From Octopus vulgaris (taxonomy: Eukaryota): a stretch of DNA of 64,000 bases. Both the position numbers and the translations under genes were made by a program. The stretch is taken from contig OX597817.1 in assembly GCA_951406725.2 (NCBI GenBank), positions 108,562,001 to 108,626,000 of the forward strand, given 5' to 3'. Position 1 is the stretch's first letter, and the number at the start of each line of letters is the position of its first letter. The notes beneath the pieces were generated by a model that saw only the letters and a program-made list of their open reading frames with translations, did not search any database and was not told the origin of the DNA. Below, piece after piece: positions 2,722-62,980 of the stretch.

Positions 2722-3097
2722 TATTTCTACTCTAAGCACAAGGTCTTGAAAATTTTGGGCGAAGGGGGCTTGTCGATTATATCGACTTCAGTGCGCAACT
2801 GGTACTTAATTCATCGACCCCGAAAGGATGAAAAGCAAAGTCGACCTCAACGGAATTCGAACTCTGAACGTAGCGGCAGACGAAATACCTATTTCTTTAC
2901 TACCCACAAGGGGCTAAACACAGAGAGGACAAACAAGGACAGACAAACGGATTAAGTCGATTATATCGACCCCAGTGCGTAACTGGTACTTATTTAATCG
3001 ACTCCGAAAGGATGAAAGGCAAAGTCGACCTCGGCGGAATTTGAACTCAGTACGTAGCGGCAGACGAAATACAGCTAAGCATTTCGCCCGGCGTGCA
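2722..3097 (-). mobile_element. SINE family B, head-to-tail dimer
   Basis: Two consecutive units containing gagttcaaattccgccgaggtcgactttgcctttcatcctttcggggtcga on the minus strand. Confidence 0.85.
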
Positions 3098-4142: not shown

Positions 4143-4523
4143 ATAATTCTTTCAACTATAGGCAGGGAGGGAACTAGTCGATTACATCGACCCCAATGTT
4201 TAACTGGTATTTAATTTATCGAACCCGAAAGGATGAAAGGCAATGCGACTTCGGCGGAATTTGAGCTCAGAACGTAGCGACGGGCGAAATAACTATTTCT
4301 TTAATATCCACTAGGGGCTAACACATACGGGACAAACAAGGACAGACAAACGGATTAAGTCGATTATATCGACCCCAGTGCGTAACTGGTACTTAATTTA
4401 TCGACCCCTAAAAGATGAAAGGCAAAGTCGACCTCGGCGGAATTTGAACTCAGAACGTAACGGCAGACGAAATACGGCTATGCATTTCGGCCGGCGTGCT
4501 AACGTTTCTGCTAGCTCGCCGCT
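4143..4523 (-). mobile_element. SINE family B, head-to-tail dimer
   Basis: Same two-unit structure and same junction as 2722-3097. Confidence 0.85.
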
Positions 4524-4624
4524 TTCATAATGAATAATAATAAGCTGTAATAAGTAAGTTTATGTAAGGTGGCCAAATCGAATTAAGATCGGTCTTAAAG
4601 ATAAATGACCATAGGATTGCATCA

Positions 4625-6805: not shown

Positions 6806-7777
6806 ATCTATCTAAGGAAAGGTTTCAATAGTTTCAATAGTAGAAAGTTGCTTAGTGGGGGGTGTTACACCGGCTGGGCCCGCCATAATAGGCCTTAATT
6901 TTAAGTATTCTGGTATTGGGATATTTATTTATAGACCTGAATTTGATTTGCAAGCATTAGTAATTAACTCTTGTGGATTTTTACCATGCACTACTGTGTT
7001 AGCAGTGCTCTGGAATCGCGTGTTATGGTCATCTCTATAGATTTTCCATAGAAACTATAGTCAACACTGATTTTGTTACGACGCTTCGTATCCGAGACGT
7101 CGGATGTGAACAAACAATGTGATCAGAGATAATGAAAATTACGATATAATCTAGTTGGTGTTTAGCGGTGAGCCGATATAAATGATAAAGACATTCATTG
7201 CAAATTTCAGTTTTTGACAGAAATATATTGTAAAAAGAAATGATTAGGATTTTATAAGCTAAGTAAAAAGATACAAAAAAAAACTCTAATGTTAATTTGG
7301 CAAATTAAAGCATATTCAAATTTAAATTCCTAAATAAATACACGGATACACATATTACTACAATGGCGGTGCTCCAGCATGGCCACAGTTTTTGGACTGA
7401 AACATATAAAAGAATAAAATAATTTTATCCAAAAGTAGGGGGGCAAACGTATATTGTAGAGTAAAAGGGACTGGATATTATAATTTTACATTTTATAAAT
7501 CCAATATTATATATATATATAACCTCATGTGGGCAATAAAGACATAAATATTAAATATATATTTTAAGACAATAGAATAAGAAAACCGGTATTAAGATTT
7601 AAAAATTAAAAATGTAACTAATATAAAGGAATAGAAGCGGAAATGTATAGGCGAGGGAAAATGAAATATAGCACTTGGATATATTATGGAATTAAGAAAC
7701 AAGTTGTAAAATGAATTGAAAAGTGCAATAAAAGCTTATACAGAATTAAAGAGGTACGTAACTATATTAAGTTCTTA

Positions 7778-8008
7778 AGGCGACAAGCTGGCAGAAACGT
7801 TAGCACGTCGGGCGAAATGTGTAGCCGTATTTCGTCTGCCGTTACGTTCTGGGTTCAAATTCCGCCGAGGTCGACTTTGCCTTTCATCCTTTCGGGATCG
7901 ATAAATTAAGTACCAGTTACGCACTGGGGTCGATATAATTGACTTAATCCCTTTGTCTGTCCTTGTTTGTCTGCTCTGTGTTTAGCCCCTTGTGGGTAGT
8001 AAAGAAAT
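7778..8008 (+). mobile_element. SINE family B monomer
   Basis: ggcgacaagctggcagaaacgttagcac head, ggttcaaattcc B box, tail gccccttgtgggtagtaaagaaat. Confidence 0.85.
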
Positions 8009-9754
8009 ATATATTAAGTTCTTTCGAGTAATTATTAGATATACAAAATATTAAATAAACATATTAAAAAGAAAACTTAAAGATGGCAAATGCTAAGGAT
8101 TTCAAATAATTATGAAAATACGGTAAAATTACATAGAAGGTGAATGATATTAAGGAAATCGGATCAATGTAAAGGAATCAGAGTTAACATAAAATTAAAT
8201 ACAATAAAATACAGGGAACTAGATCATGCAAGATAAAAGAAATTTTATGAAGGAAGAAGGTGAATAAATTAGGGAATTCATAGTTTCATATAAATTCCAA
8301 AAAGTGTGTAATATGTTCTTCTAAACGGATTATATTGAACAGAAGAATACTTATATACGGTTGAAGCACGAAGAGTAATAATGATCAATAATAAACCTTA
8401 AGAAGTAAGATTACGTAAAGAGGCTTAATTGAATTAAGGTCGGTCTTACAATAAAGTAAATACTGTAAGGAAAGAAGTTACATTTTAGATATAAGCAGTG
8501 GTAATGAACTTTCCTCTAACAAACGACAGCTGATAATTCTGCCTTTTGTTGCTGAAAACCTGCACATGCTTTGTTCACAGTGATAAAACGCTTGTACTGC
8601 ACATTAGCTTACTCTCTCCATTGAATCGACATTGTGTGTACAGAGGCACGGTGTGCCATACATCTGATGTCGGAGTGATCGCAGATGAACGTGAAATGAA
8701 ATGTTTTGCTCAAGAACACAACAACTCGGTTGGTCAGTGTATGGGACAGTAATCTTGTAACTGTGAGTGCAACATCCTAACCTTATACACCGTACTGGGG
8801 TATAGGTGACATCTTCAAGTTGGTCTCAGTACAAATCAGAAATCAAAATACTTTGAAAAACAATCAGGTTCTACTGGATGCAAGTGTATTGCAATTCAGT
8901 CAAGAAAGCAGGTTGCCATTTTGGTAAAACACATGACAATCGATAAGATCACTAATTTCCGCTGAGTCATTTGTGTCCATGCTTTGATCGAACAGAATAT
9001 TTGAAGGTTTTTTTTTATGATATGGCATCCTGGTGTTTTAAGATCGTTTTGCATGCGTGCGTTATTTTGTCGATATCTGACTTTTTAATGCTGGTTATGG
9101 ATTTAGCAAACTAGACCATACCGAATAGAAGAAAAGTAATAGAAGAAAACTAATCTTTTAAACTACTTTTGTGAAGAATACGTTTAAACCATTTCATGAC
9201 GTTGTTACTACTCTACCGTAAACGCAAAGAATTACGATATCAAATATAAATTTGCTAATTTTTCCAATATCTGTTTTCATGGTGTTTATAATTTTAACAC
9301 GAGACTTTTGTTAACTTTATGTTTGTGGCGTTTCTTTGTGAAATAAAGAGCTTTCTTATACAAATTAATGGCGATTGGAAATTAGTATTTGGTAGCTATT
9401 TTTTTTTATTCATTTCGCATATGTGTTGAGTTTTATCCTATTGGAGAAAAATATAATTCAATGTTTTTATGTTATATAATTTATGTTCCATCGTTCTCTC
9501 TAAAACTTCTTTTCTATTCTCTGTGTCATGCATTTGAAGTATCCCTTCCAGGAAGGAATTGCAGTGTTTTGAGTAAAGCTATTTTCTGTTTCTAGATGTC
9601 AGTAAAATAGAAAAAGATGTCAGTAAGAAAGGTCACTAAAAGGACTAAAGTTGCTGTTATTTATTAATTCAATAGTTTTGTTAGAAAGTGCAGTATGTTC
9701 CAGTCATTTGATCTTATCAGACGAAATATAGGTTAAAGAATATATTGCATTTTA

Positions 9755-14725: not shown

Positions 14726-14735
14726 TAATAAATGC

Positions 14736-14766
<31 letters not shown>

Positions 14767-14797
14767 TGTATGTATGTATGTATGTATGTATGTATAT

Positions 14798-16546
14798 ATG
14801 ATGTCTGCTGTAGGAAAGGTTTTATGCAGGATACTTCTGGATCGTCTGCTGAAATACATTGCAGATTGTGTTCTTCCAGAAAGTCAATCTGGCTTTCGTG
14901 TGGGACGCGGCACTGCTGATATGATCTTTTCAGCTAGACAGCTTCAGGAAAAGTGTGTGGAACAGGGTCTAGATTTATATCAGGTGTTTGTCGATCTGAC
15001 AAAAGCCTTTGATACCGTCAATAGAAAAGCATTGTGGAAAGTCCTCCAGAAACTTGGGTGTCCTGAAAAGTTCCCTGCTTTGGTTAGGTCTTTTCACGAA
15101 GACATGAATAGTAGGGTGAATGTTAGAGGGAAGATGTCGGAGCCCATTTCAATACAAAATGGAGTGAAACAGGGGGATATTCTGGCACCGACCCTATTTT
15201 CCATATATTTCGCGATGGTGCTCTGTATTGCATTCAGAAACTGCAGATACGGTGTTTACGTCCATTATCGAACCTCTGGCAGCATATTTAATATCAGGCG
15301 CCTTGCTGCAAAAACAATGATATTTACCTCTGTCATAAGAGACCTTTTGTATGCTGATGATTGTGAGCTAGTAGCACACACAGAGATTGATATGCAACAC
15401 ATTTTAAATGCATTCTCTGATGCTTGCACTGCCTTAGGATTGACAATCAATCTCAAGAAAACTGTTGTCATGCATCAACCTGCCCCTGGTAAGCAGTATA
15501 GTGTACCAAATATATATGTGAATGGTAAACGACTTGATGTAGTCGATCAGTTTGTCTACCTGGGAAGCACTATTAATAGATATGGCAATGTGGATGATGA
15601 AGTTCCATATAGAATTAGGAAAGCAAGTGTTGCTTTCGGAAGGCTAGAAAAGCGCCTCTGGAGTCGGCGCGACATATGCAGAAAGACAAAGATAAAGGTG
15701 TACAAGGCATATGTGCTCCCTACTCTTCTCTATGCTTGCGAGACGTGGGTCACATATCAATACCACCTTAAACATCTGGAACGTTTACATCAGATGTGCC
15801 TCAGACGGATCTTTAGCATTAAGTGGAAGGACCGCATCAATGATCTTGAAATACTCGAAGGCTCTCGGTGTGTAAGTATAGAAGCTCTTGTGTTAAAGCA
15901 AAGGCTCAGATGGAATGATCGTCTGGTCAGAATGAAGGATTCAAGGATGCCAAAACAACTCTTTTATGGAGAGTTAGCTAAAGGAGAACGACCTCCACAT
16001 AAACCAAAAAAGAGGTATAAGGACTTGCTGAAGGCTTCCTTAAGAGATGCTTGCATCTCTCCTGACACATGGGAAGGCATAGCTATTGATCGTAGCAGGT
16101 GGAGAAGGATTGTGCATGAGGGGACAGCCACATTTGAGAAATATCGAGTTGCACATGAGAAAGTAAGGAGGGATGTCAGGAAGGGCATCGCTGTTACACT
16201 TCCAGAAGGGAAGTGTCTTCCTTTGATTCTGACATGTAATGTCTGTGCAAGACCCTGCCTCAGTAAAGCTGGACTCATGAGTCATCTTCGTAGTCATAAA
16301 ACGAGACAGATGAGTGACAATCTGGCCACTGGTGGTGGTGTAACACACCATACTAATCATATCTGTCGGGCATGTGGAAGAGAGTGTAATTCGGCAGGAG
16401 GACTTAAACGACATGCAAAGGTACATGAAGCCCAGTTACAACTACAGCCGGCTATTACCAGTAAAGGTCTTAGTTGCCAATTTTGTACAAGACATTGTAG
16501 GTCTTCAGCTGGGCTAAAAAGTCACATTCGATCACAGCACCAGTAA
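14798..16546 (+). CDS. RTE reverse transcriptase ORF (no APE endonuclease) with three C-terminal C2H2 zinc fingers
   Basis: Uninterrupted frame of ~582 codons; fingers CNVC...HLRSH, CRAC...HAKVH, CQFC...HIRSQH. The part of the track ORF from 14732 to 14797 is microsatellite. Confidence 0.9.
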   Translation: MMSAVGKVLCRILLDRLLKYIADCVLPESQSGFRVGRGTADMIFSARQLQEKCVEQGLDLYQVFVDLTKAFDTVNRKALWKVLQKLGCPEKFPALVRSFHEDMNSRVNVRGKMSEPISIQNGVKQGDILAPTLFSIYFAMVLCIAFRNCRYGVYVHYRTSGSIFNIRRLAAKTMIFTSVIRDLLYADDCELVAHTEIDMQHILNAFSDACTALGLTINLKKTVVMHQPAPGKQYSVPNIYVNGKRLDVVDQFVYLGSTINRYGNVDDEVPYRIRKASVAFGRLEKRLWSRRDICRKTKIKVYKAYVLPTLLYACETWVTYQYHLKHLERLHQMCLRRIFSIKWKDRINDLEILEGSRCVSIEALVLKQRLRWNDRLVRMKDSRMPKQLFYGELAKGERPPHKPKKRYKDLLKASLRDACISPDTWEGIAIDRSRWRRIVHEGTATFEKYRVAHEKVRRDVRKGIAVTLPEGKCLPLILTCNVCARPCLSKAGLMSHLRSHKTRQMSDNLATGGGVTHHTNHICRACGRECNSAGGLKRHAKVHEAQLQLQPAITSKGLSCQFCTRHCRSSAGLKSHIRSQHQ

Positions 16547-19099: not shown

Positions 19100-20322
19100 T
19101 TAGGTCGTTCCGAAAATAGTGGTTGCTCTAAGTGTTGTGTTTTGAAAAGCAATTTTATCAGTATTTTAATTATATTATACTTAATAAGTGATGTATACTC
19201 TTTAATAATTTTCTACTTATTTCATATAGAAAACATTTTTGAAGCATAGGCGCCCCTAATTATGAACATAAAAAAACAGCACCTTCGTTTACTTTTCTTG
19301 CATGAGTTCAAGCTTGGGCAAAATGCTGCCAATATCAACAGAACATAGGGAGAAGGGTCTACAAGTGATCGCACTGTATGCAAAATTGGTTTCAGAAATT
19401 CCGTAGTGGTGATAAGAGCCTTGAAGATGAAGAAGGCAGAGGACGGTCATGCAGTCTTGGCAATGAACAATTGAAAGCAATTTTTGAACAAAACCCACTT
19501 CAAAATATCAGAGCAGTGTCTCAGGCACCTGGTGTCGGTATTGCAACGTCTCACACAATCTGCAGAAGAATGGTAAATTGAAAAAGCTCGATAAATGGGT
19601 ACTGCATGGGCTCAATAAAAATCAAAATGTTCGGCATTTTGAAGTATACTCGATGCTCTTTCTGCGAATCACCAATGATCCTTTTCTTGACTGAATATTC
19701 CCTTGTGACGAAAAGTGGGTCCTTTATGATAACTAAACGATCAGATCAATAGCTTGATTGTGATGAGTCCCCAAATATTTCCCAAAGCTAAAGTTGCATC
19801 AGCAAAAGATTATGGTGACTCTCTGGTGGTCTGCAATTGGTGTTGTTCATTACAGCTTTCTGGGAGCCAATCAGAGCATTACAGCAGTGGTTTACTGCAA
19901 TCAACTCGCTGAAATGCATGCTCACTTGCAAAAAATGAGAACTGCATTGGTGAATCGGCGTGGCCCAATTCTGCCTCACGATAATGCAAAACCACATGTT
20001 GCGGGAATGACGCCGCAGAAACTCACATACTTGGGATACAAGACTTTACCACATCCTCCATATTCTCCAGCTCTTTCACCCACTGACTACGATTTTTAAA
20101 GCATTTTAAACATGTTTTTAAGTGATTCAACTTGCAGGTCCAAACCAGAGGGGTAATCAGCTTCCAAAGATTTCTTAGAATCAAAACCAATAAGTTTTTA
20201 AGAACTTGCATAATCTCGTTGATCGATGGCTGAGATGCATAGATGTTCACGGCTCATAGTTGACTAATGAAACATTTCTATTGTTAATTTTTCTGAAATC
20301 GGCCATTATTTTCGGAACAAAA
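19100..20322 (+). mobile_element. Near full-length mariner DNA transposon, transposase disrupted
   Basis: TIRs gttccgaaaatagtggt / gccattattttcggaac; motifs WFQKFRSG, KWVLHGL (WVPHEL-like), DEKWVLYDN, HDNAKPH, PPYSPALSPTDY; stops and frameshifts; ~1.2 kb. Confidence 0.92.
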
Positions 20323-26174: not shown

Positions 26175-26580
26175 CGATAGCTGTGTGGTAAGAAGCTTGC
26201 TTCCCAACAACATGGTTCCGGCTTCAGTTCTACTGTATGGCAACTTGTGTGAGTGTTTTCTACTCTAGCGTCGGGCCAACATAGTTCTTCTGAGTGGATT
26301 TGGTAGACGGCAACTGAAAGAATCCTGTCGTATATATATATGTATGTATGCATGTGTGTATGTGTGTTTGTAATTGTGTTTGTCTCTCCCCACCATTTGG
26401 CAAGCGGCGTTGGTTTATTTGCGTCCTCGTAACGTAGCTGTTCGTCAAAAGAGACCGATGGAATAAGTACCAGGCTTATGATTTAAGTACTGGTGTCGAT
26501 TCATTCGACTAAAAATTCAAGGCGGTGCCCCAGCATGATTGCAGCCAAATGACTGAAGCAATTAAAAAGTAAAAAAGAAA
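26175..26580 (+). mobile_element. SINE family A
   Basis: gctgtgtggtaagaagcttgcttcccaa head; tail ggcggtgccccagcatg...aatgactgaa. Confidence 0.85.
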
Positions 26581-28499: not shown

Positions 28500-28743
28500 C
28501 TATTTATTTCTTATTTCTTTACTGCCCACAAGGGGCTACATACAGAGGGGACAAACAAGGACAGACAAACGGATTAAGTTGATTTGATTGACCCCAGTGC
28601 GTAACTGGTACTTATTTAATCGACCCCGAAAGGATGAAAGGCAAAGTCGACATCGGCGGAATTTGAACTCAGAACGTAGCGGCAGACGAAATATCGCTAA
28701 GCATTTCACCCGGCGCGCAAACGATTCTGCCAGCTCACCGCCT
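28500..28743 (-). mobile_element. SINE family B monomer
   Basis: Reverse complement of 7778-8008. Confidence 0.85.
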
Positions 28744-30734
28744 TTTCCTTTCTATTTATTTCATTAAGTCTATTTTATATAATCATTTAATTCATTAAAA
28801 TCATTTAATTCATTAAAATTATCAGGCATTTATTTAGTTCCCAAATTTGTAGTATCTGAAGATCTGCTTCTAAAGAACTACCCATGCGATTATAAGAGTA
28901 CATTTATTCACTGAATTTATAAATGTAATTGAAAAGTTCTTTCTTCTAAAGTACGATGTACTTAATGCAATTACTGATAACGAAACCTTTAATAAGTAGT
29001 ATTTTAAATATGCTCCCCAGATTGTCCTTTTCCATAAGCGTTGATGGTTTTGATTGAACACAATTCCATTTCTAGAGAAGGGGCAAATGAACTTGTTTCT
29101 CTTTTTGGAGGCGTTAGCGTCATAAGTGAAGTGAAAGAGATTCAACTAGTACACAATTAATATGGTGTCCCGGTTTGCCGAGAGCATATTTATTACACAC
29201 ATTTTCCTTTTCAATGAAAAATATTGAGAAAGAAAGGAAGTATATGTTTTAATACATCTAGTTCGGTGTCCTTCAAATCTGATATGATAATTAATCAGAT
29301 ATTCCTTGAGTTACACATGGAAAAATCTATGATTACACTTATTTGTGTTCAATGTATCATGACTGTTGCTATTCTAGTATATTAGATCTCTGTAAGAGAA
29401 TAATTTCTTACTAAAAAGCAGTATTATAGTCATAACATACAACGCTGGTATTTTCAATTACTAACAATACATTTAGAGTGGGGACGCTGTTGAAAAAGAG
29501 CCAAAGTATTTCTAATTTTAATGAACAGTTGGAGAGCACATATCAATTGATTTTAACACAGTTGATTTTAATACGTGTGTTCGTGTCAACAGTTCAAATA
29601 ATAAATAGGCTTCGTATGCTATAGCAATTTCCCCACTATTTTATGAATTCCTATATTTCATAATGACATTTTAACGACATTACATTAAGAATTGTACCTT
29701 ATATATCACTATACAATCACTTCTAAAAAGAAAGTTTGAATTTCATGGACACTGCGTGAAAACAAATTTTATGGGCAGAGTTATAGAATATTGATATTTA
29801 CTCTGTATTTCATTAAAAATACTGATTTTCTTGTCTTAATATAGTTTGGAAATCTAATGATGAACACTCTCTGAGAATTCTCTGAAATTCTCCCAAATTT
29901 ATAGCAATTATATTGGTGAAAATATCATTTTTCAGAGGCTAAGCTTCGTTGTAATGAAGGAAACATGCTATGATAATGATCTGCAATGTCATTTACTAAA
30001 AAACGCAAAGAATCTTTTTCTAGAATATTTGATATGTAAAACTTGTAGCCATAGACATTAACTGTTATGTTACGAATTATTTTACCTAATTATATAACTT
30101 AAAGCAGAATATGAAAGATTGTAAAATTTACCATTTTTGTCACTATTGGATTATTTTATCATTTTGTAAGTATTGTTTTAATAGCTGAACGCCTGGATTA
30201 CGATAGCCAGTTAATCACTTCATAATATCGCCACCACCAGTCCTCTACCACTCCCATCATTCTCACTGTTTTCGTCTCTCTTTCTCTTGTTAGCAGAATA
30301 GGCCACCTGAAGGGGCTAGAAAAGGAGCGCTCGCATCACAGCTCGACCAATCCTTTAATTTCCCACTCTCTTGATAAGGCAACAAAAAAATAATAAAGAT
30401 TCTATATGTTACCATGGTGTTTGTGAGACTATTGCATAACTAACTCCGAGAAATTAGTTTGCTTAGAGGGATAAACGTTTTTGATACCATTCAGCATTAC
30501 TATCAGTGTAAGCATTAAATGAAATTGTAGAAGGAATCCAAGAAATGATGAACAGATTATTTGAAAAGAAATAGCGTAGGTACTGGTTGTTTTGTTAAAG
30601 ATATGAAGAAAGCATTTTCATATCCAGTTTTAATAGGTTTCATCTGAATATCATACGTATATGTAATGATCAACAACATTAATTGTAACTACTTCTAGGA
30701 GAACTATAGACTATAGCTAAGATAGGAAGGTAGA

Positions 30735-33689: not shown

Positions 33690-34730
33690 TGTACCACAAC
33701 ACATCACAATGATAAGCTGCAAGGAAAGATTAATGAACCGGAATGAGGTTCGAACATCGATTAAAAAGGAACGAGCCACTATGAGTGTTCAGACGAGTAC
33801 CAGGGAAATTGGTTAAGATACAACTAAGAGCTGGTACTCAAAGTCTTATGGCCTGACATTCTGAGAGCAGAACGTCTTTGAAAAAACTCCTAATCCTGAC
33901 ATTTTAAGATGTTCCACCAAACCTATCCAACTTATGTTGTGGAGAGTTAGAGTCAGCTGCCTGCTCCGGTGCTTGAGGAGAAAAACTCTGGCGTACATCC
34001 TCAGTATCTGTAGAAAAGCCCTGGGAAAGGAACGTTATATCTGGAGGCATGATCAGGCCTTGAAAGTTATAGGTGACACCATCTGAAGTGGCATTAGCCA
34101 TTGAAAGTGCCTCCGCATAGCAAAAAAAAAATCTGTCACCTCTGTCGAGGCTGGCTGGGAAAAGGTACAAGCTGTCAAGTTCTCTTCCACGAGCCTACTT
34201 ACAACGGTAAAATATTGGGAGCTGAAAGTTTATGTGGTGAAGTAACTTAACTTTCCAGAAACTACAGCATCAAGATTAAGCTCATGTGTGGTGCTAATAT
34301 CAGAAGCATCCAAGACGGTGCGTTTTGTTAGAACTCCCCACTTTCAGGGAAAATCGTATTGAGGAGGTGAATAAGAGACGGAAATATGTTGAGGGGGGGG
34401 GGTATTCCAAAACAATCGGTGGAGAGTAAGGTGTGATCCCATTGAGGGGGAATACAGGTACGCTTCTTTGATGAACTTGTAGCATGCTGGGAATCACAGC
34501 AGGTATGAGCGTATCAATATTACTATAGAATTAGCGGAGAGTGCCTCAAGGCGGCTTTGGACCAGACGGTGGTATCCCTGGAATGGGTAGTACTACAAAG
34601 CGTTGTGTTAAATGAACACAAGCAGGAGTTTTATCAACCATGGTTAGGCAGCCTGAATGAGGGTATCTAATTGTTGAAAGATCTGAAACACTTAATTAAC
34701 CCCAAGAACCATCATTGCTGGTGTGTCCGG
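33690..34730 (+). mobile_element. Old Hero-like RLE non-LTR retrotransposon, 3' fragment
   Basis: Remnants QGNW, RYIWRHDQAL, ENRIEE collinear with the younger copy at 44600-46205; many stops. Confidence 0.7.
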
Positions 34731-35900: not shown

Positions 35901-36749
35901 TTACTACAAACTGCACATTACCTATTTTTCAGGACTGATCTGACACTGTTCTTTAAGTTTTCTGTAGGAAAGTCAAAATCCTGTAATGACCAACGATCAT
36001 GCAGGCCCGCAATGCCAATACGTATTTTGGTTTGCTTACTGAGACTATGGTATGTTCGTTGAAGTTATACTCCTAAACTAAATTAGCCTGTTGAATACAA
36101 ATTTAAATAACGAGACTATTCGCATAATGCAAACTTATATAACAATAATAAATTTGTATTTAAAGGAAGGATTAAATTAGTCAAGAATTTAGAATTATCA
36201 AAGAAATACCACATTACATAGAAACAGTAATATTATATTCTGTCAGTTATAGAAGTGTTAGCTGTCTGTCAAGCTTTTAAAGAAAGGTATTCTTGCTGCA
36301 CCAGATATTTCATGTGCAAATTTTACTTTTTGTAACAATGTAAACGTTAGAACCAAACACAATCTGAGGTACAGTTGGGGTGTCCCTATAATGATGTCCC
36401 TATAATAATCCGTTGATGATTAAATATTAGATATTGGCGCGTTCCTCTGGTCAGTCCTAATTGAAGAGGTTTATGGCAATTCAGTCGAATGACTACGTGC
36501 AACCCACGAATCTATTGCTTTAGAAGCATCCTGTTTCCATTATCCAGATCCATGCACCACAGTCCGATTTGTAGCGATGAATTTTGAACGTCTGGGCTCG
36601 TCCTTAGTCCATTGTCTATTATCCAGTCTATTCCTATATGGACGTAGGTTCAGAGTATTGCCATAGCGGAGAACAAGGGGAACTTGGTCAGGTTATTCTA
36701 ATTATTGGAGTTATTCTAAGATATCTTGTGCACATGGAAGTCTTCTACA

Positions 36750-37320
36750 GTAATAGTGTTTGGTGATACAGTTGTGGTGTTAGTTTGGTAGAAATCTCAG
36801 TGAAGTTGGTAATGGTTAGCAGTATGTTGTTTCCCAATATTGAAAGTGTGTCATTTCATGTTTTATGTGCTGTATGCATAAATTTGTGTAAGAAATTGCT
36901 ATTAAAGTTTGGCCTACATAACCATATCAAGATTTTGAAGGACCTTGTACTGAACATATATTCTTTTGTTCATGTAACAATACTAAGTGAATTTTATGGG
37001 TGATGATATATTTTAAAGTTTATGGAAATAATTTCTAGGCTGACCGTGTTGCTGCATGTTCCACTTATAAATGGTGAGGTAATATACATTGATTATTTTG
37101 TTGTAGTGTATTTTGTGAGTGATGTTCTTTGATTTTAATGTTTATTACTTGGGTTGGCATTGTTGTAGAATATGCAGTGACAATATTGTTGTACATACAT
37201 ACTTTAAAACGACGATATTGGCAGCACTTCCACTTTCTGTAAATTGTAAATTTTCGAATGCTTTTTCAATGTTCTTATCCGTTTTGTGCGAAAGTATTGC
37301 TTATAAATTTTTCAAATGCT
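36750..37320 (-). mobile_element. Highly decayed Penelope-like (GIY-YIG region) remnant
   Basis: Minus strand YGYVGQT and NNIVTAYS pieces; TG-rich strand bias like the other PLE fragments. Confidence 0.4.
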
Positions 37321-37410
37321 AGTTATTGATCCTATTGCCGTTCTGTGCGCATTTTTTCAGTTGAAATTTTATCGTTTGGGCAAAATTCCACCCTGTGATA
37401 AGTTCATTCT

Positions 37411-37670
37411 TTCTAACATTATTTACATTATTTATATTTGACTGATATTTGTCCTCATCTTGTTTCTTAACACAACACTTCGGCTGATATACCCTCCAGC
37501 CTTCATCAGGTGTCTTGGGGAAATTTCGAACCTGGGTTCTCATTCCTAAGGTATTTTTCGATGTTGTTGTTGTTATTATTATTATTATTATTGTTGTTGT
37601 TGTTGTTGTTGTTGTTGTTATTATTATTATTATTATTCAGGTCACTACCTGAAAATCAAACTCGGAATAG
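37411..37670 (-). mobile_element. Short non-coding repeat with hammerhead core, copy A
   Basis: Minus strand gacac-CTGATGA-aggctg...cagcc-GAAGTGTT-gtgtt at 37469-37514; inverted copy at 37672-38898. Confidence 0.8.
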
Positions 37671-37671
37671 C

Positions 37672-37677
37672 TAGCGA

Positions 37678-37740
<63 letters not shown>

Positions 37741-38671
37741 TAATAATAATAATGCTTTTTTATTAACATCAAATGACTACCATACAAGATAGAAATACAA
37801 GTTTTCATATGTGCAATCACTATCAGTACACCTCACTAACATCAAAAGAATGCGTCTGAAAATATGGAGAAATAGAAGGAATTTTAGAGAAGCTTAGGAC
37901 TCAAAGCAGAGACAGAGGGATTTTTAATTGCAGCACAAGACCAAAGCCTCCCCACCAGAAATTACCAAAAACATGTAATGAAAAGAAATATAACAAGTAA
38001 CTGCAGAATATGTGGAGATGGACACGAAACAATAAATCATATTATCTCTGACTGCCCAGTCCTGGCTAAAAAGGAATATATTCACAGACACGACAGAGTT
38101 AGGACCTACATACACTGGAAGCTATGCCAACATTATGGAATAACAACAGAAAAAAGATGGTATAGGCACACACCAGAAAATGTCACAGAAAACGAGAAAG
38201 CAACCATACTCTGGGATATGCCAATACACACAGATAGAGAAATTAAGGCCAACAGACCAGATATAGTTGTCAGAGATCGTGAAGAAAAAAATGCTTTCTA
38301 ATTGATGTATCAATACCAGCAGATGACAACGTGTCTCTAAAAGAAATGGAGAAACTTTCAAAATACAAAGACCTGGAAATAGAGGTAACCAGAATGTGGA
38401 ATCTAAAAACAGAAACAATTCCTATCATAGTAGGTGCATCAGACATGATAAAAAATTATTCAGACAAATGCATAACGAAAACACCAGGACTTACAAACAC
38501 ATATGACATACAGAAAATTGCACTACTAGGCACTGCATACATCCTACGCAGAACACTTTCAATACAGTAACCATCAGAGCATCACAACAAATCACATCAC
38601 ATACCCAAGGCACACAGAGCTGCACTCGGTAGTGAAGTGAAAGCACGTTATAAAAATAAAACTACTGAATG

Positions 38672-38732
<61 letters not shown>

Positions 38733-38898
38733 TAATAATAACATCGAAAAATACCTCAGGAATGAGAATCCAAGACACCTGATAAAGGCTGGAGGATATA
38801 TCAGCCGAAACGTTGTGTTAACAACAAAGAAGATGGGGACAAATATCCGTCAAATGTAAATAATGTACATAATTCCTCATCTCTTAAATATAGCACTG
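37672..38898 (+). mobile_element. Same repeat, copy B, interrupted within its (AAT)n tract by an R4/Dong LINE
   Basis: gacctgaataat(aat)n ... (aat)n aacatcgaaaaatacctcaggaatgagaa; hammerhead core at 38774-38819. Confidence 0.8.
37888..38670 (+). mobile_element. R4/Dong-like RLE non-LTR retrotransposon, 3' fragment
   Basis: AETEGFLIAAQDQ, CCHC knuckle CRICGDGHETINHIISDC, RHD, RPDIVV, KYKDL; frameshift near 38290; (AAT)n tail. Confidence 0.9.
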
Positions 38899-40630
38899 TG
38901 TCATTCTTTCTAAGTTAATCATTTTAGAATTCGATTTTTCTAAACAATGGAAATAATACTTTGTGGACGACGCTGTTATTCTTAGCAGATCGAGCCGCCA
39001 CCAGTGAGACAATTGTTCGTTAGATATTTATTTATTATCATGTTAACTACTTGAGTTATTATTGTCTAAGGTGAGTCAGCTTTCTGACACCTGGAATGTT
39101 TTAGGGTATATCATTGCTAGGCTTTGGCCTTTGCTTCTGTAGCTACGGTGATGAAATTAGATACCATCATATTTGTCGTGCAATCTATTCTAACGTTGTA
39201 TACAGTTTTTTTTCCGTCTTTGTAGTATCGTTGTTTCTGATGACGTATCTCTAATATTGATATGACGTCATTGTTCCTGCTAAAATTCCTTCTATTTCTC
39301 CATATTTTCAGACGCATTCTTTTGATGTTAGTGGTAACTACAGGTGTACTGATAGTGATTGCACATATGAAAACCTATATTTCTATCTAGTATGGTAGTC
39401 ATTTGATGTTAATAAAAAAGCATTATTGTTCTTGCGTACTCTTTGAAATTGATGTATAAATATATAAGCAGATATCGTTATAACTGAATTAATTTCTAGC
39501 TTCTATCTAAACTGTATCCCAAACCTAATCACTATTGTTACCATTACTTTCGTCGTACCATTACTTCCATCACTACCTCCTTACAACTAAACCAATACAC
39601 GCACCATTCCTATCATCACTGTAACCACTACATTACTTATCTTTCATCACAACACCACTTCCATCAAAACACCCACTAGTACTAACACCACTATTAACCC
39701 TGTCACCGTGTTTGATCATGGTTAACTTGGTGGTAAACGACAAACATTAATATAGTATCAGCATTGTCGCCTTCACCTCTGAAAAACCACCCATTCTAAT
39801 TTTTTTAAGCTGGCATGTTATTTTAGAATATATTATTGAGTGAAGTATATACATATTTATTTGATTTGTGTTGGGATCAAACGTTCTCAGTATCCTGTAA
39901 TAAAATATTTAATCTAGTCGTTATTTGTGTCATGTGTAGGGTACAAAAATGATGAGAAAATAGATATTATAGAAAGTCTAGAAAACAAAAGATAAAATAT
40001 TTTATATTAACATGCATATATTATTTTGATTTCGTGTGGTCATGATGAACAGCATATCACTTACAGGTAATATTCAGAACGAGATCGCATTTTATGCTTT
40101 ATTAAGAATCTATGGATTCTTAGTTCATATACACAACAAGAAGTCTGTTATAGTTTCTTGTATCTAGAGGACGATTGGAAAAGATTCAGGATCTTGATTG
40201 TTTCTAGCAAATATTTTCATGGCTACAATTCCATGGGTTGAGTTACAGAGGTAAAATTCTTATATGCTGGCACGCCTTGAGAGCAATTAAAAATGGCCAG
40301 AGCCCTCTAGAGTTACGATAATTCAATAAAGGCTAATGTATGTCGTAAACATATCATTTAAGTGAGAAAATAGGAAAATACACAAGAATCGACTCTATTC
40401 GAAGTATTATAGTATAAAGACAGAAGCTGTCTTCGGCTACTAAACTGTGCTCATCCCAAGGAAGTCATATAAACGGTAAAATTAATATATTGCCCATCGA
40501 AATTGCTCATTCACTTCTATTAGAAAGTTAGTCTTGATGGAATACATATGTATGAACAGTTACACAAATATGTCACCATCAGAAACGAAGCACATGCACA
40601 TATACGCCATGTATGCACACTGGGTGCTTG

Positions 40631-44599: not shown

Positions 44600-46205
44600 T
44601 CTAATCAGGAGGGGGGATAGGGTAAACAACAAAATGAGGCTGCAAGTTCAAGGAGAGGTCATTCCATAACAGAGGAAAATCCTATTAAGTGCCTTGGAAA
44701 GATGTTTGACAAGTCTCTGTCAAACACAAGCAATGTCACCAGAATGGTGAAGCAAACAGATGAGTGGCTGATGAGGATTGATAGATCAGGGCTTCCAGAA
44801 AAGTTCAAGGCATGGCTCTACCAACGGTTGTTGACGTTGTATGATGTTCCAATGGCAAGTTTGAAAAGAGTGGAGGGGAAGATAAATAAATACCTCCGAA
44901 AATGGTTAGGTGTTCCCCCAAGCTTCACTTAATAGGCCTTTACATAAGTTCGGGACAGCTACAACATCCCCTGTCATCCGTAGTGGAGGAATTTAAAGTA
45001 GTAAAATGTAATGTTGTAATGCTGTACAGAGACTCTAAGGACTAGCATGTCAGACATGCAGGTATACCACAAGGTCTGGGCGAAAGTGGATAGCTAGCCC
45101 CGCAGTTGCTCGAGCTAAAGTGATGCTGGATCTATACGACATCCTTGAAACTACATGCAGCTGTTGCCAGGGTTTTAGTTCTTCCTATTCCCAACAATGG
45201 AAGAAAGCAGACACCAGGGAGAGGCGGGTTATGACCCAGGAAGCAGTGTAGTACCAGGAGGAAGATAAAAGAAAATCCAGAGCTGTGGAGTTGGTATCTA
45301 AGGGTGCATGGATTAAATGGGATCTCCCTAAGAGGAAGCTGACATGGACTGATCTGTGGAGGCTTGAACCTTTTCGCTTCTTGCTTCGGGTGGTGTATGA
45401 TACACTCCCGACGCCAACAAACCTGCACAGATGGGGTTTGAGGGAAGACCAGCTGTGTATATTTTGTGGAGAAAGGGGAACTCTGGTACACATCTTGGCC
45501 GGATGCAGAATAGCACTTTCTCAAGACAAATTTTAATGATACCGTGATAGGGTGCTTGCAATACTTATTCACACCCTGGAGCAGGAAAGGTGCAAGAAAC
45601 AAGGGAAGGTAACGGCAGCAATTAAGTTCATGAAACAATAAAGCCAGCAAAATCAATACATAGCTTGCTGCAAGCTATGAAAGTGATGGGATATGAAAGT
45701 GGATTTAGAGGAGAGATTGCAGTTTCCACAGGTAGTACATACAACCCTGAGGCCAGATGTGGTCATCTTCTCTGAAAAGGTCAAGAAAATTATCGTAATT
45801 GAACTAATAGTCCCGTGGGAAGAGGGTTGTGATGAGGCCCATGAACGGAAGCATGCCGGATATGAGAGCCTTCTGCAGAATTGCAAGGAGAAGGGATGAC
45901 AGCTATGGTCTTTCCCAGTCGAGGTTGGCTGTAGGGGATTCCCTGCCCAGTTGGTATAGAGGATTCTTACAGCAATTCGAATGTGAAGTAAGAAGTGAAG
46001 GATGGCTGTGCGCAGGATGGGAGAAGCAGCTGAAAGAGCCTCTTGCTGGCTTTAGTGTAAGACAGAAGAGTTAAGCTGGAAGCCAGGAGGAGTTGAGGAG
46101 CAGTGTCTTGGCCACCTCTGCTGACCCACCAACGGGAGGGTGTTACGGTTCAAAGTCGAACGATGGATACTGTCTGATGACATCAGTTCCTCCGGGCCAA
46201 GGCTC
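44600..46205 (+). mobile_element. Hero-like RLE non-LTR retrotransposon, 3' part, disrupted
   Basis: KCLGK, LRKWLGVP, YDTLPTPTNLHRWG, CIFC...HILAGC, LRPDVV...IELIVPWEE. Confidence 0.9.
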
Positions 46206-58730: not shown

Positions 58731-59115
58731 GGCGCTGTGCAGGAGTGGCTGTGTGGTAAGTAGCTTGCTTACCAGCCACATGGTTCCGGGTTCAATCTCA
58801 CTGCGTGGCACCTTAGGCAAATGTTTTCTGCTATGGCCTCGGGCCGAACAAAGCCTTGTGAGTGGATTTGGTAAACGGAAACTGAAAGAAATCTGTCCTG
58901 TATATGTTTGTGTGTCTGTGTTTGTCCTCCCACCATCGCTCGACAATCGCTATTGGTGTGTTTACGCCCACGTAACTTAGCGGATCGGCAAAAGACTTTA
59001 ATAGAATAAGTACTAGGCTTACAAAGAATAAGTCCTGGGGTCGATTTGTTCGACTAAAGGCGGTGCTCTAGCATGGCCACAGTCAAATGACTGAAACAAA
59101 TAAAAGAATAAAAGA
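58731..59115 (+). mobile_element. SINE family A, full length
   Basis: gagtggctgtgtggtaag A box, ggttcaatctc B box, complete tail to gaaacaaataaaagaataaaagaa. Confidence 0.9.
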
Positions 59116-59331
59116 ACACCAACATACAATGAAAAACACAGGAACACATACACATTCACACATACACACGCACACAGACACAGACATGCGCACACACGCA
59201 CACATTTACAACAAATATGATGCATAAACTGGGCACAGCTATACTGATTTCGAAATCTCTCAAGCCGATTTATCGCCTTCATAGCTCTTTGCTTCACACC
59301 AGGATATAAACCATATTAACCCTTCAGTTTG

Positions 59332-60914: not shown

Positions 60915-61303
60915 AGCAGCCAGTTGGCAGATTCATTAGTTCACCGGGCAAAATGCTTAGCGGTATTTCGCTCATCTTTACGTTGTGAGTTCAAATTCCG
61001 CTGAGGTTGAATTTGCTTTTCTTCGATAAAATAAATTAGTCGATAAAATAAGTACCTATTTCTTTACTACCCATAAGGGGTTAAACACAGAGGGGACAAA
61101 CAAGGACAGACAAACGGATTAAGTCGATTACATCGACCCCACTGCGTAACTGGTACTTAATTTATCGACCCCGAAAGGATGAAAGGCAAAATCGACCTCG
61201 GCGGAATTTGAACTCAGAACGTACCAGCTGAGAACTGTGGTCAATAAATCGACTCACAGTCGAACCAGAAATTGCAGGCCTTGTGCCAAAATTTGAAACC
61301 AAT
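60915..61303. mobile_element. SINE family B (+) with a second copy (-) nested at ~61057-61220
   Basis: The outer copy stops at agtacc and resumes at gtaccagctg. Confidence 0.75.
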
Positions 61304-62575: not shown

Positions 62576-62980
62576 GGCGCAGGAGTGGCTGTGTGGTAAG
62601 TAGCTTGCTTACCAACCACATGGTTCCGGGTTCAGTCCCACTGCATGGCATCTTAGGCAAATGTTGTCTACTATAGCCTCGGGCCGACCAAAGCCTTATG
62701 AGTGGATTTGGTATACGGAAACAGAAAGAAGCCCGTCGTATATATGTATATTTTTTTTTATATATGTATGCATGCTTGTATGTCTGTGTTTGTCCTCCCA
62801 ACATTGCTTGACAACCGATGGTGGTATGTTTACGTCCCCGTAACTTAGCGGTTCGGCAAAAGTGACCCCGATAGAATAAGTACTAGACTTACAAAGAATA
62901 AGTCCTGGAGTCGATTTGCTCGACTAAATGCGGTGCTCCAGCATGGCCGCAGTCAAAGGACTGAAACAAGTAAAAGAGAG
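62576..62980 (+). mobile_element. SINE family A, full length
   Basis: Near-identical organisation to 58731-59115. Confidence 0.9.

What the first reader, a model, noticed from the sequence alone, without database searches (positions are those of the whole stretch)
37411..38898. Short non-coding mobile repeat carrying a minimal hammerhead ribozyme, present as a back-to-back inverted pair
Seen: the consensus of the two copies reads gacac-CUGAUGA-a-ggcug(gagggUAUAU)cagcc-GAAAC-GUU-guguu. This gives stem I, the catalytic core, a 5-bp stem II and a palindromic AACGUU in place of stem III. Copy A (37469-37514, -) keeps CUGAUGA but has GAAGUG; copy B (38774-38819, +) keeps GAAACGUU but has CUGAUAA, so each has a different lesion and the ancestor was intact. 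Known: Penelope-like elements carry such minimal hammerheads, thought to work as dimers. Inference: this ~250-bp element (B-box-like remnant gagtttgattttc, then (AAT)n, then the ribozyme) may be a SINE- or retrozyme-like RNA mobilised by Penelope RT/GIY-YIG, a little-described class.
Basis: partly seen in the sequence, partly recalled or inferred. Interest (0 to 1): 0.8.

Follow-up and report, generated by a model that had tools for sequence, protein, structure and literature searches.

The report
Penelope-borne hammerhead repeat, inserted head-to-head
Two broken copies of a very abundant short repeat carrying a minimal self-cutting-RNA motif lie head to head between a 13-base direct repeat, so they were likely inserted together by a Penelope-type jumping gene, and a weak tRNA-like remnant suggests the repeat may be a small RNA parasite of Penelope rather than simply its end.

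Summary
Two minimal type I hammerhead motifs lie at 37469-37514 (-) and 38774-38819 (+), each with a different core lesion. Reads from other copies restore GAAA (93%) and GAAAC (56%), so the master was likely intact. New here: a 13-bp direct repeat (37404-37416, 38901-38913) brackets both copies, and only B has the family's ~31-nt 3' tail. Head-to-head 5'-truncated ends, a short target duplication and a one-sided tail are the published signature of Penelope-like element (PLE) integration. The pair is not adjacent: a younger 5'-truncated Dong/R4-like LINE sits in B's (AAT)n, and without it the ribozymes are about 270 bp apart. The repeat is about 10^4-10^5 times deeper than its single-copy flank. 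No PLE ORF was found nearby, and RNA reads showed no discrete ends or circles. A T-arm/B-box-like remnant lies upstream of A (about 1% by chance, descriptor fitted afterwards), with no A box. PLE mobilisation is well supported. Whether the master is a tRNA-headed non-autonomous RNA (about 0.5) or the end of an autonomous PLE (about 0.35) is unresolved.

The parts
37404..37416 (+). Left copy of a 13-bp direct repeat (TCATTCTTTCTAA), inferred target-site duplication
   Evidence: the word occurs only twice in the window, at the two outer ends; 26 of 5000 control segment pairs share any 13-mer
37417..37562 (-). Copy A body: about 50-nt leader, ribozyme, AT-rich 3' part; no tail
   Evidence: family reads pile up on it
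37469..37514 (-). Minimal type I hammerhead, copy A; A15.1>G and C15.2>U; predicted inactive
37563..37637 (-). (AAT/AAC)n tract inside copy A
37638..37668 (-). 5'-truncated head of copy A; its last 13 nt match B's upstream 13 nt at 11 of 13 positions
37649..37665 (-). T-arm/B-box-like remnant (4 of 5 stem pairs, loop one transition from the tRNA T-loop); no A box
   Evidence: 18 such sites in both strands of the window, 0.006 expected per 45 nt per strand; descriptor fitted after seeing the site
37669..37681 (+). 5'-truncated head of copy B; head-to-head junction at about 37668/37669
37682..37753 (+). Left half of B's (AAT)n tract, the target of the later LINE insertion
37742..37887 (+). Filler: inverted copy of 39280-39433 at the LINE 5' junction
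   Evidence: 141 matches, 5 mismatches, one 8-nt gap
37888..38667 (+). 5'-truncated non-LTR retrotransposon (zinc knuckle plus restriction-like endonuclease region, one frameshift near 38290, then 3' UTR), Dong/R4-like; secondary insertion
   Evidence: zf-RVT, E 3e-6; 258 relatives; aligns to the C-terminus of three ~1200-aa RT proteins; the clade name is inferred from domain order and the TAA target (PMC3812793)
38668..38741 (+). Right half of B's (AAT)n tract
38742..38869 (+). Copy B body, with a 17-nt deletion upstream of stem I
38774..38819 (+). Minimal type I hammerhead, copy B; G8>A; predicted inactive; palindromic AACGUU intact
38870..38900 (+). About 31-nt 3' tail of the family, present on B only
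   Evidence: matches by eye the loose-end consensus of family reads before 37416 and 37418 (table 7)
38901..38913 (+). Right copy of the 13-bp direct repeat

Best explanation
The locus is a head-to-head pair of 5'-truncated, core-mutated copies of a very abundant hammerhead-bearing repeat between 13-bp direct repeats, likely inserted in one event by a Penelope-like RT/GIY-YIG protein from a short non-coding master RNA that probably had a tRNA-derived head. Likely steps: (1) the master RNA (head, (AAT)n, leader, minimal hammerhead, 3' end with optional tail) is bound by a PLE protein; (2) the endonuclease nicks both strands of an AT-rich site 13 bp apart; (3) both DNA ends prime reverse transcription, one from the tail end (copy B) and one from the inner start site (copy A); (4) both cDNAs stop within the head and are joined head to head. 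The ribozyme would cut after GUU only as a dimer or with protein help. Both copies keep sequence on both sides of that site, so the template was uncut RNA, and the ribozyme is likely inherited from a PLE terminal repeat rather than needed for insertion. The two motifs face opposite strands, so they cannot dimerise within one transcript. Later a Dong/R4-like LINE inserted into B's (AAT)n. Shown: anatomy, direct repeat, one-sided tail, family majority letters, abundance, LINE fragment. Inferred: PLE protein, dual priming, tRNA head, Pol III transcription, any cleavage.
For: 13-bp direct repeat exactly at both outer ends. Tail on B only, while hundreds of family reads carry it (632 and 675 loose ends in X21). 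The same architecture (inverted pLTRs of about 200 bp, 9-10-bp TSD, optional 31-bp tail) is described in PMC3846280 and PMC8557442. A purified PLE nicks and extends both strands, starts RT at two sites that bound the tail, and does not need ribozyme cleavage (PMC11167929). The motif fits the published PLE min-HHR consensus, including the C-G-U-U palindrome. Other strand inversions of this family appear (X18 joints 37469/37546 and 37513/37550, one contig each; an X21/X22 loose end behind 37501 that reads as the opposite strand). Depth in X15 is 13,533-140,222 times the flank (a rough ratio, not a copy number). (AAT)n is internal to the unit, because 11 of 13 bases upstream are shared by both arms and X18 loose ends behind 37547 are (TTA)n. 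T-arm-like remnant in A's sense directly upstream. No GIY-YIG or PLE-like ORF among 148 of 173 window ORFs scanned.
Against: The head rests on one 17-nt remnant with a descriptor fitted afterwards; the A box is absent, and ARAGORN and Rfam find no tRNA. No full-length copy and no autonomous partner were obtained. One reading frame is open through all 147 nt of A (94 of 2000 shuffles) and through B after its deletion (195 of 2000), which would suit the start of a PLE ORF inside a pLTR. RNA reads show no discrete small transcript. Ribozyme activity and stem covariation were not tested.
Confidence: 0.52

Rival explanations
1. Same PLE-type insertion, but the two copies are ordinary 5'-truncated pseudo-LTR ends of an autonomous PLE whose 3' region contains an (AAT)n tract; the B-box-like word is chance or an unrelated insert.
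For: Every demonstrated feature is a textbook pLTR feature. Most min-HHRs in genomes are attributed to truncated PLEs (PMC4209133). An open frame from an ATG at 37543 runs through ribozyme and tail, as PLE ORFs begin inside the pLTR. Three earlier scan reports on other genomes reached this verdict (not independent evidence).
Against: T-arm-like remnant upstream of A in the right sense. No protein relative of three element frames was found (the open frame was tried only in the Atlas; all weak searches). A's downstream flank is single copy and is target DNA, not a PLE body. The published octopus Hydra-1 ribozyme has different stems.
Confidence: 0.35
2. A LINE-dependent SINE (for example a Dong partner, read in the other direction with a (TTA)n tail); two copies landed separately and the ribozyme motif is a passenger.
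For: The LINE 3' end and both arms share the letters CTGAAT before the microsatellite. Dong elements target TAA repeats (PMC3812793).
Against: One 13-bp duplication brackets both copies. The microsatellite is internal. Both arms carry the 3' end, which twin priming of one LINE-type RNA does not give. The tail is optional.
Confidence: 0.07
3. A non-LTR retrozyme that spreads through self-cleaved circular RNA.
For: Size (about 250-330 nt) and a type I hammerhead fit metazoan retrozymes (PMC7229834); retrozymes are proposed to derive from PLE ends (bioRxiv 10.64898/2026.07.22.740005).
Against: The copies are inverted, not direct tandem. No place where many RNA molecules begin or end, and no RNA joint among the 15 of 46 joint rows shown; these are 150-nt cDNA libraries, so the evidence is weak.
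Confidence: 0.06

Closest known systems
Minimal hammerheads in pseudo-LTRs of metazoan EN+ Penelope-like elements (Cervera and de la Pena 2014, PMC4209133; Arkhipova et al. 2013, PMC3846280; Craig et al. 2021, PMC8557442)
   Same: CUGANGA, bulged base, G-C-closed long stem II, GAAA, palindromic CGUU, short stem I; opposite-strand pairs a few hundred bp apart; inverted 5'-truncated copies, short TSD, optional ~31-bp tail.
   Different: No RT/GIY-YIG ORF seen; internal (AAT)n; possible tRNA-derived head; TSD of 13 bp against 8-10 bp in the rotifer examples.
Schistosoma SM-alpha / Sj-alpha SINE-like elements (seen only through PMC6765202 and PMC8490949)
   Same: Short non-coding repeat with a hammerhead and, if the head is real, a Pol III promoter upstream of it.
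   Different: SM-alpha occurs in direct tandem arrays and self-cleaves in vitro; here the ribozyme is the PLE minimal type and the insertion shows PLE integration marks.
Metazoan non-LTR retrozymes (PMC7229834; bioRxiv 10.64898/2026.07.22.740005)
   Same: Small, non-coding, type I hammerhead, proposed PLE dependence.
   Different: Defined by direct tandem repeats and circular RNAs; neither is seen here.
Non-autonomous PLEs such as MRC1 of Chlamydomonas (PMC8557442, passage)
   Same: Short derivatives mobilised in trans that keep PLE 3'-end structure.
   Different: Chlamys-type elements lack canonical hammerheads, and no tRNA head is mentioned in the passage read.
Dong/R4-clade non-LTR retrotransposons (for the inner insert only)
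   Same: C-terminal zinc knuckle and restriction-like endonuclease region after RT; insertion in TAA repeats.
   Different: 5'-truncated and frameshifted; clade not tested by a tree.

Membership tests
PLE-type minimal hammerhead | Core CUGANGA-N / GAAA-N-palindrome-UH with stem II and short stem I, no stem III | tested here: met
   Met for the family majority; each window copy fails at the core (A at 15.1 and 15.2, B at G8). No variant row at 37503-37509 among the 40 of 67 rows shown.
PLE-type minimal hammerhead | Compensatory changes in the stems | not testable with these tools
   Only two copies and per-site read counts were available; L001-L014 share only the search motif.
PLE-type minimal hammerhead | Self-cleavage as a dimer or with protein | not testable with these tools
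   Needs an assay. B's palindrome forms a predicted 6-bp duplex of -3.5 kcal/mol and A's does not.
EN+ Penelope-like element insertion | Head-to-head inverted 5'-truncated 3' ends | tested here: met
EN+ Penelope-like element insertion | Short TSD around the whole unit | tested here: met
   13 bp; no empty site seen
EN+ Penelope-like element insertion | Optional 30-40-bp tail on one end | tested here: met
   B 38870-38900 against A
Autonomous PLE | ORF with telomerase-like RT and GIY-YIG endonuclease joined to the repeat | tested here: inconclusive
   None in this insertion or among the ORFs scanned; other loci could not be fetched (no genome held).
tRNA-derived SINE | Head with A and B boxes | tested here: inconclusive
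   B-box/T-arm-like remnant only; both copies are truncated before any A box; ARAGORN and Rfam negative.
tRNA-derived SINE | LINE partner and simple-repeat 3' tail (SINEBase definition, PMC3531059) | tested here: not met
   The 3' end is a unique PLE-type tail; the simple repeat is internal.
tRNA-derived SINE | Discrete Pol III transcript | tested here: inconclusive
   Reads come equally in both directions and 79-81% run on into unlike sequence; the library type would miss small RNAs.
Non-LTR retrozyme | Direct tandem units, each with a hammerhead | tested here: not met
   Inverted pair at this locus; other loci not examined.
Non-LTR retrozyme | Circular RNA / ends at the cleavage site | tested here: inconclusive
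   None seen in two RNA runs (tables 5 and 6).

The most novel reading that the evidence does not exclude
A tRNA-headed, Pol III-driven SINE that has docked onto Penelope instead of a LINE: it carries a PLE 3' end with a minimal hammerhead, integrates with PLE marks (inverted pairs, optional tail, short TSD) and has reached about 10^5 copies, making it a genome-scale record of how PLE proteins pick and copy RNA in trans.
Probability: 0.45. Interest if true: 0.65.

Novelty: new variant of a known kind. Interest (0 to 1): 0.42.

Why it matters
The ribozyme type and the inverted arrangement are known, so the locus alone is a tidy example of PLE integration. If the tRNA head is confirmed, it would be a SINE-like class whose partner is a PLE; SINEs are defined as LINE-dependent (PMC3531059), and my searches found no paper describing a tRNA-headed PLE parasite. 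A short family with tens of thousands of copies would also let TSD length, RT start sites and the need for ribozyme cleavage be measured statistically, which are open points in PLE mechanism (PMC11167929). The 'variant' rating depends on the head; without it this is a new member of a known kind.

Tried and rejected
Idea that A leads into a decayed PLE ORF on its 3' side: rejected, since 36300-37391 is one contig at depth 47.2 in X15 and has no reads in X18, X21 or X22, it has no long ORF, and the 13-bp repeat marks it as target DNA. No whole genome was held. DNA scans: viral contigs 0 matches for three patterns; metagenome contigs 12 loci and genome contigs 2 loci, all sharing only the hammerhead motif; plasmids and phages no match. 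Protein searches with translations of the element: none, one low-complexity hit, no usable Atlas hit. Rfam: no hammerhead or tRNA hit. No RNA holder was listed on record. Short motifs of the element were absent from the paper library and from the supplements searched (one file of PMC4824008 and one of PMC4209133 could not be searched). No covariance model was built. Cofolding of whole motifs gave non-catalytic dimers and was uninformative. Whole-motif folding z-scores were modest (-1.5 and -1.7). Earlier scan notes: nothing by place or sequence or by two word sets.

Full report
Observation. Each has a 5-bp stem I, a bulged A after the first core box, a 6-bp stem II closed by G-U, and GAA followed by the stem III-less palindrome. 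Copy A (37469-37514, -) has lost A15.1 and C15.2; copy B (38774-38819, +) has G8>A. In a PLE hammerhead a single G8 change abolishes cleavage (PMC11167929), and A15.1 is a conserved core base (established knowledge), so both copies are predicted dead. A structure-plus-core descriptor with one mismatch allowed hits only these two places in 64 kb and nothing in 30 Markov controls. Rfam finds no hammerhead.

The family. Reads and contigs were laid on 36300-37558 at 80% likeness. In X15 the element bins are 13,533 to 140,222 times deeper than the flank, which is one contig at depth 47.2. The tool warns that this is no copy number, so I read it only as order 10^4-10^5. Family reads restore A15.1 in 2731 of 2925 (X21) and 2206 of 2370 (X22) reads, and C15.2 in 1529 of 2714 and 1242 of 2165. 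No variant row falls on CUGAUGA among the 40 of 67 rows shown. So the master was likely intact. CpG sites in the core are decayed in many copies (G12 in 695 of 2938 reads, C11.1 in 696 of 3179), which suggests neutral ageing of most copies. The RNA runs carry the same species label as DNA holders and may not be the window's own species. In them 6453 of 12,895,792 and 5278 of 11,974,664 records were laid, equally in both directions, 79-81% running on into unlike sequence. There was no pile-up of starts or ends and no RNA joint among the 15 of 46 joint rows shown. This fits read-through of embedded copies and says little about a small RNA.

One insertion. A 13-bp word occurs twice in the window, at 37404-37416 and 38901-38913, abutting the 3' end of A and the 3' end of B (26 of 5000 control segment pairs share any 13-mer). 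B ends with about 31 nt (38870-38900) that match the family's loose-end consensus; A stops before them. The arms pair across the centre: 11 of 13 bases upstream of the microsatellite are shared, so (AAT)n is internal to the unit and the junction lies near 37668/37669. This is the layout reported for EN+ PLEs: inverted pLTRs of about 200 bp, a 9-10-bp TSD and an optional 31-bp tail (PMC3846280, passages; PMC8557442, passages and section 11). Opposite-strand min-HHR pairs 100-700 bp apart are reported in PMC4209133 (parts 1-2 of 4), and the motif fits its supplementary consensus. A purified PLE protein nicks and extends both strands, starts at two sites that bound the tail, and inserts uncut RNA (PMC11167929, parts 1-2 of 4). 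Dual priming therefore explains two outward 3' ends, one with and one without the tail; this step is inferred. One search shows other strand inversions in the family (two X18 contigs; one RNA loose end).

The middle. 37888-38570 encodes the C-terminal ~230 residues of a ~1200-aa RT protein with a zinc knuckle and a restriction-like endonuclease region. It sits in B's (AAT)n, the known target of Dong elements (PMC3812793, passages); the clade name is inferred. Its 5' junction carries an inverted copy of nearby 39280-39433 (141 matches, 5 mismatches). That is closer than A to B (113 matches, 12 mismatches; Fisher p 0.045), so the LINE likely came later. Without it the ribozymes are 273 bp apart.

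What the master was. In A's sense, directly upstream of the shared 13 nt, lies a T-arm-like word (37665-37649): 4 of 5 stem pairs and a loop one transition from the tRNA T-loop. The descriptor finds 18 sites in both strands of the window, about 0.006 per 45 nt per strand, but I loosened it after seeing the site. There is no A box, and ARAGORN and Rfam see nothing. I also recall an abundant octopus repeat with a tRNA-like head that continues in this way, and the window's repeat content looks octopus-like; both points are recall and come from no call. Against the head, one frame is open through A and through B's ribozyme and tail (94 and 195 of 2000 shuffles; the copies are not independent), as expected if a PLE ORF starts in the repeat. 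No partner was found. Pfam scans of 148 of the 173 window ORFs of 65 aa or more that passed a complexity filter gave no GIY-YIG domain. Protein and DNA searches were blank or shared only the motif. The published octopus Hydra-1 ribozyme differs. I put a tRNA-headed non-autonomous master at about 0.5 and an ordinary PLE end at about 0.35.

Literature seen. Besides the above: bioRxiv 10.64898/2026.07.22.740005 (parts 1-3 of 5; its supplements are closed), PMC13282606 (parts 1-2 of 3 and a supplement search; PLEs are 6.83% of the O. vulgaris assembly in 190 families, whose sequences I could not see), passages of PMC7229834, PMC8490949, PMC6765202, PMC8969392, PMC3531059, PMC8967140 and PMC10886601, and a supplement search of PMC4824008. 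Lunse et al. 2017 was not held; it and Ferbeyre et al. 1998 are known to me only through reviews and reference lists. Searches listed no paper describing this family or a tRNA-headed PLE parasite, but subscription papers and repeat databases are not covered, and the family may already be annotated there.

Verdict. The feature is real. Its ribozyme type and insertion layout are known PLE traits, now shown here with a target duplication and a one-sided tail. The open and possibly new point is the tRNA-like head, which one genome-wide alignment would settle.

Noticed in passing
window 37742-37887 and 39280-39433: The 5' junction of the Dong/R4-like insert carries a ~146-nt inverted copy of DNA lying about 600 bp beyond the insertion site, starting at an AAT microhomology: likely a templated filler from a template switch.
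   Followed up: partly
window 37682-37753 and 38668-38741: The two (AAT)n tracts around the LINE share a 68-nt string that includes the same GAT variant, which may be an unusually long target duplication.
   Followed up: no
window 37521-37533 (-): A second B-box-like word (GGTTCGAAAT) lies in A's leader, inside the 17 nt that B has lost.
   Followed up: no
window 37417-37543 (-) and 38769-38900 (+): One frame from an ATG stays open through ribozyme and tail in both copies; the common 3-nt indel among family reads keeps the frame.
   Followed up: partly
window 14732-16543 (+): 604-aa ORF with an RT domain followed by C2H2 zinc fingers, another LINE-type element.
   Followed up: no
window 19767-20096 (+), 45252-45533 (+), 33865-34086 (+): Mariner-type transposase fragment and a zf-RVT fragment; the third ORF looks by eye like another zinc-knuckle LINE remnant but had no significant Pfam hit.
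   Followed up: no
window 2763-3096, 4168-4525, 7777-8015, 28512-28744, 61050-61231; and 26180-26579, 58739-59116, 62579-62977: At least two other abundant short repeat families, some with B-box-like words, likely ordinary tRNA-derived SINEs.
   Followed up: no
L002-L004, L006-L009, L011, L012: AT-rich metagenome contigs with other minimal-hammerhead-like motifs sharing the same stem II arms, probably host-animal PLE ends; L001, L005, L010, L013 and L014 hold hammerhead-like motifs in GC-richer, prokaryote-like contigs.
   Followed up: no
loose end behind window 37501 in X21 and X22: About 200 and 175 reads with 97-99% agreement switch strand inside stem II, pointing to one well-expressed locus that holds another head-to-head pair.
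   Followed up: no
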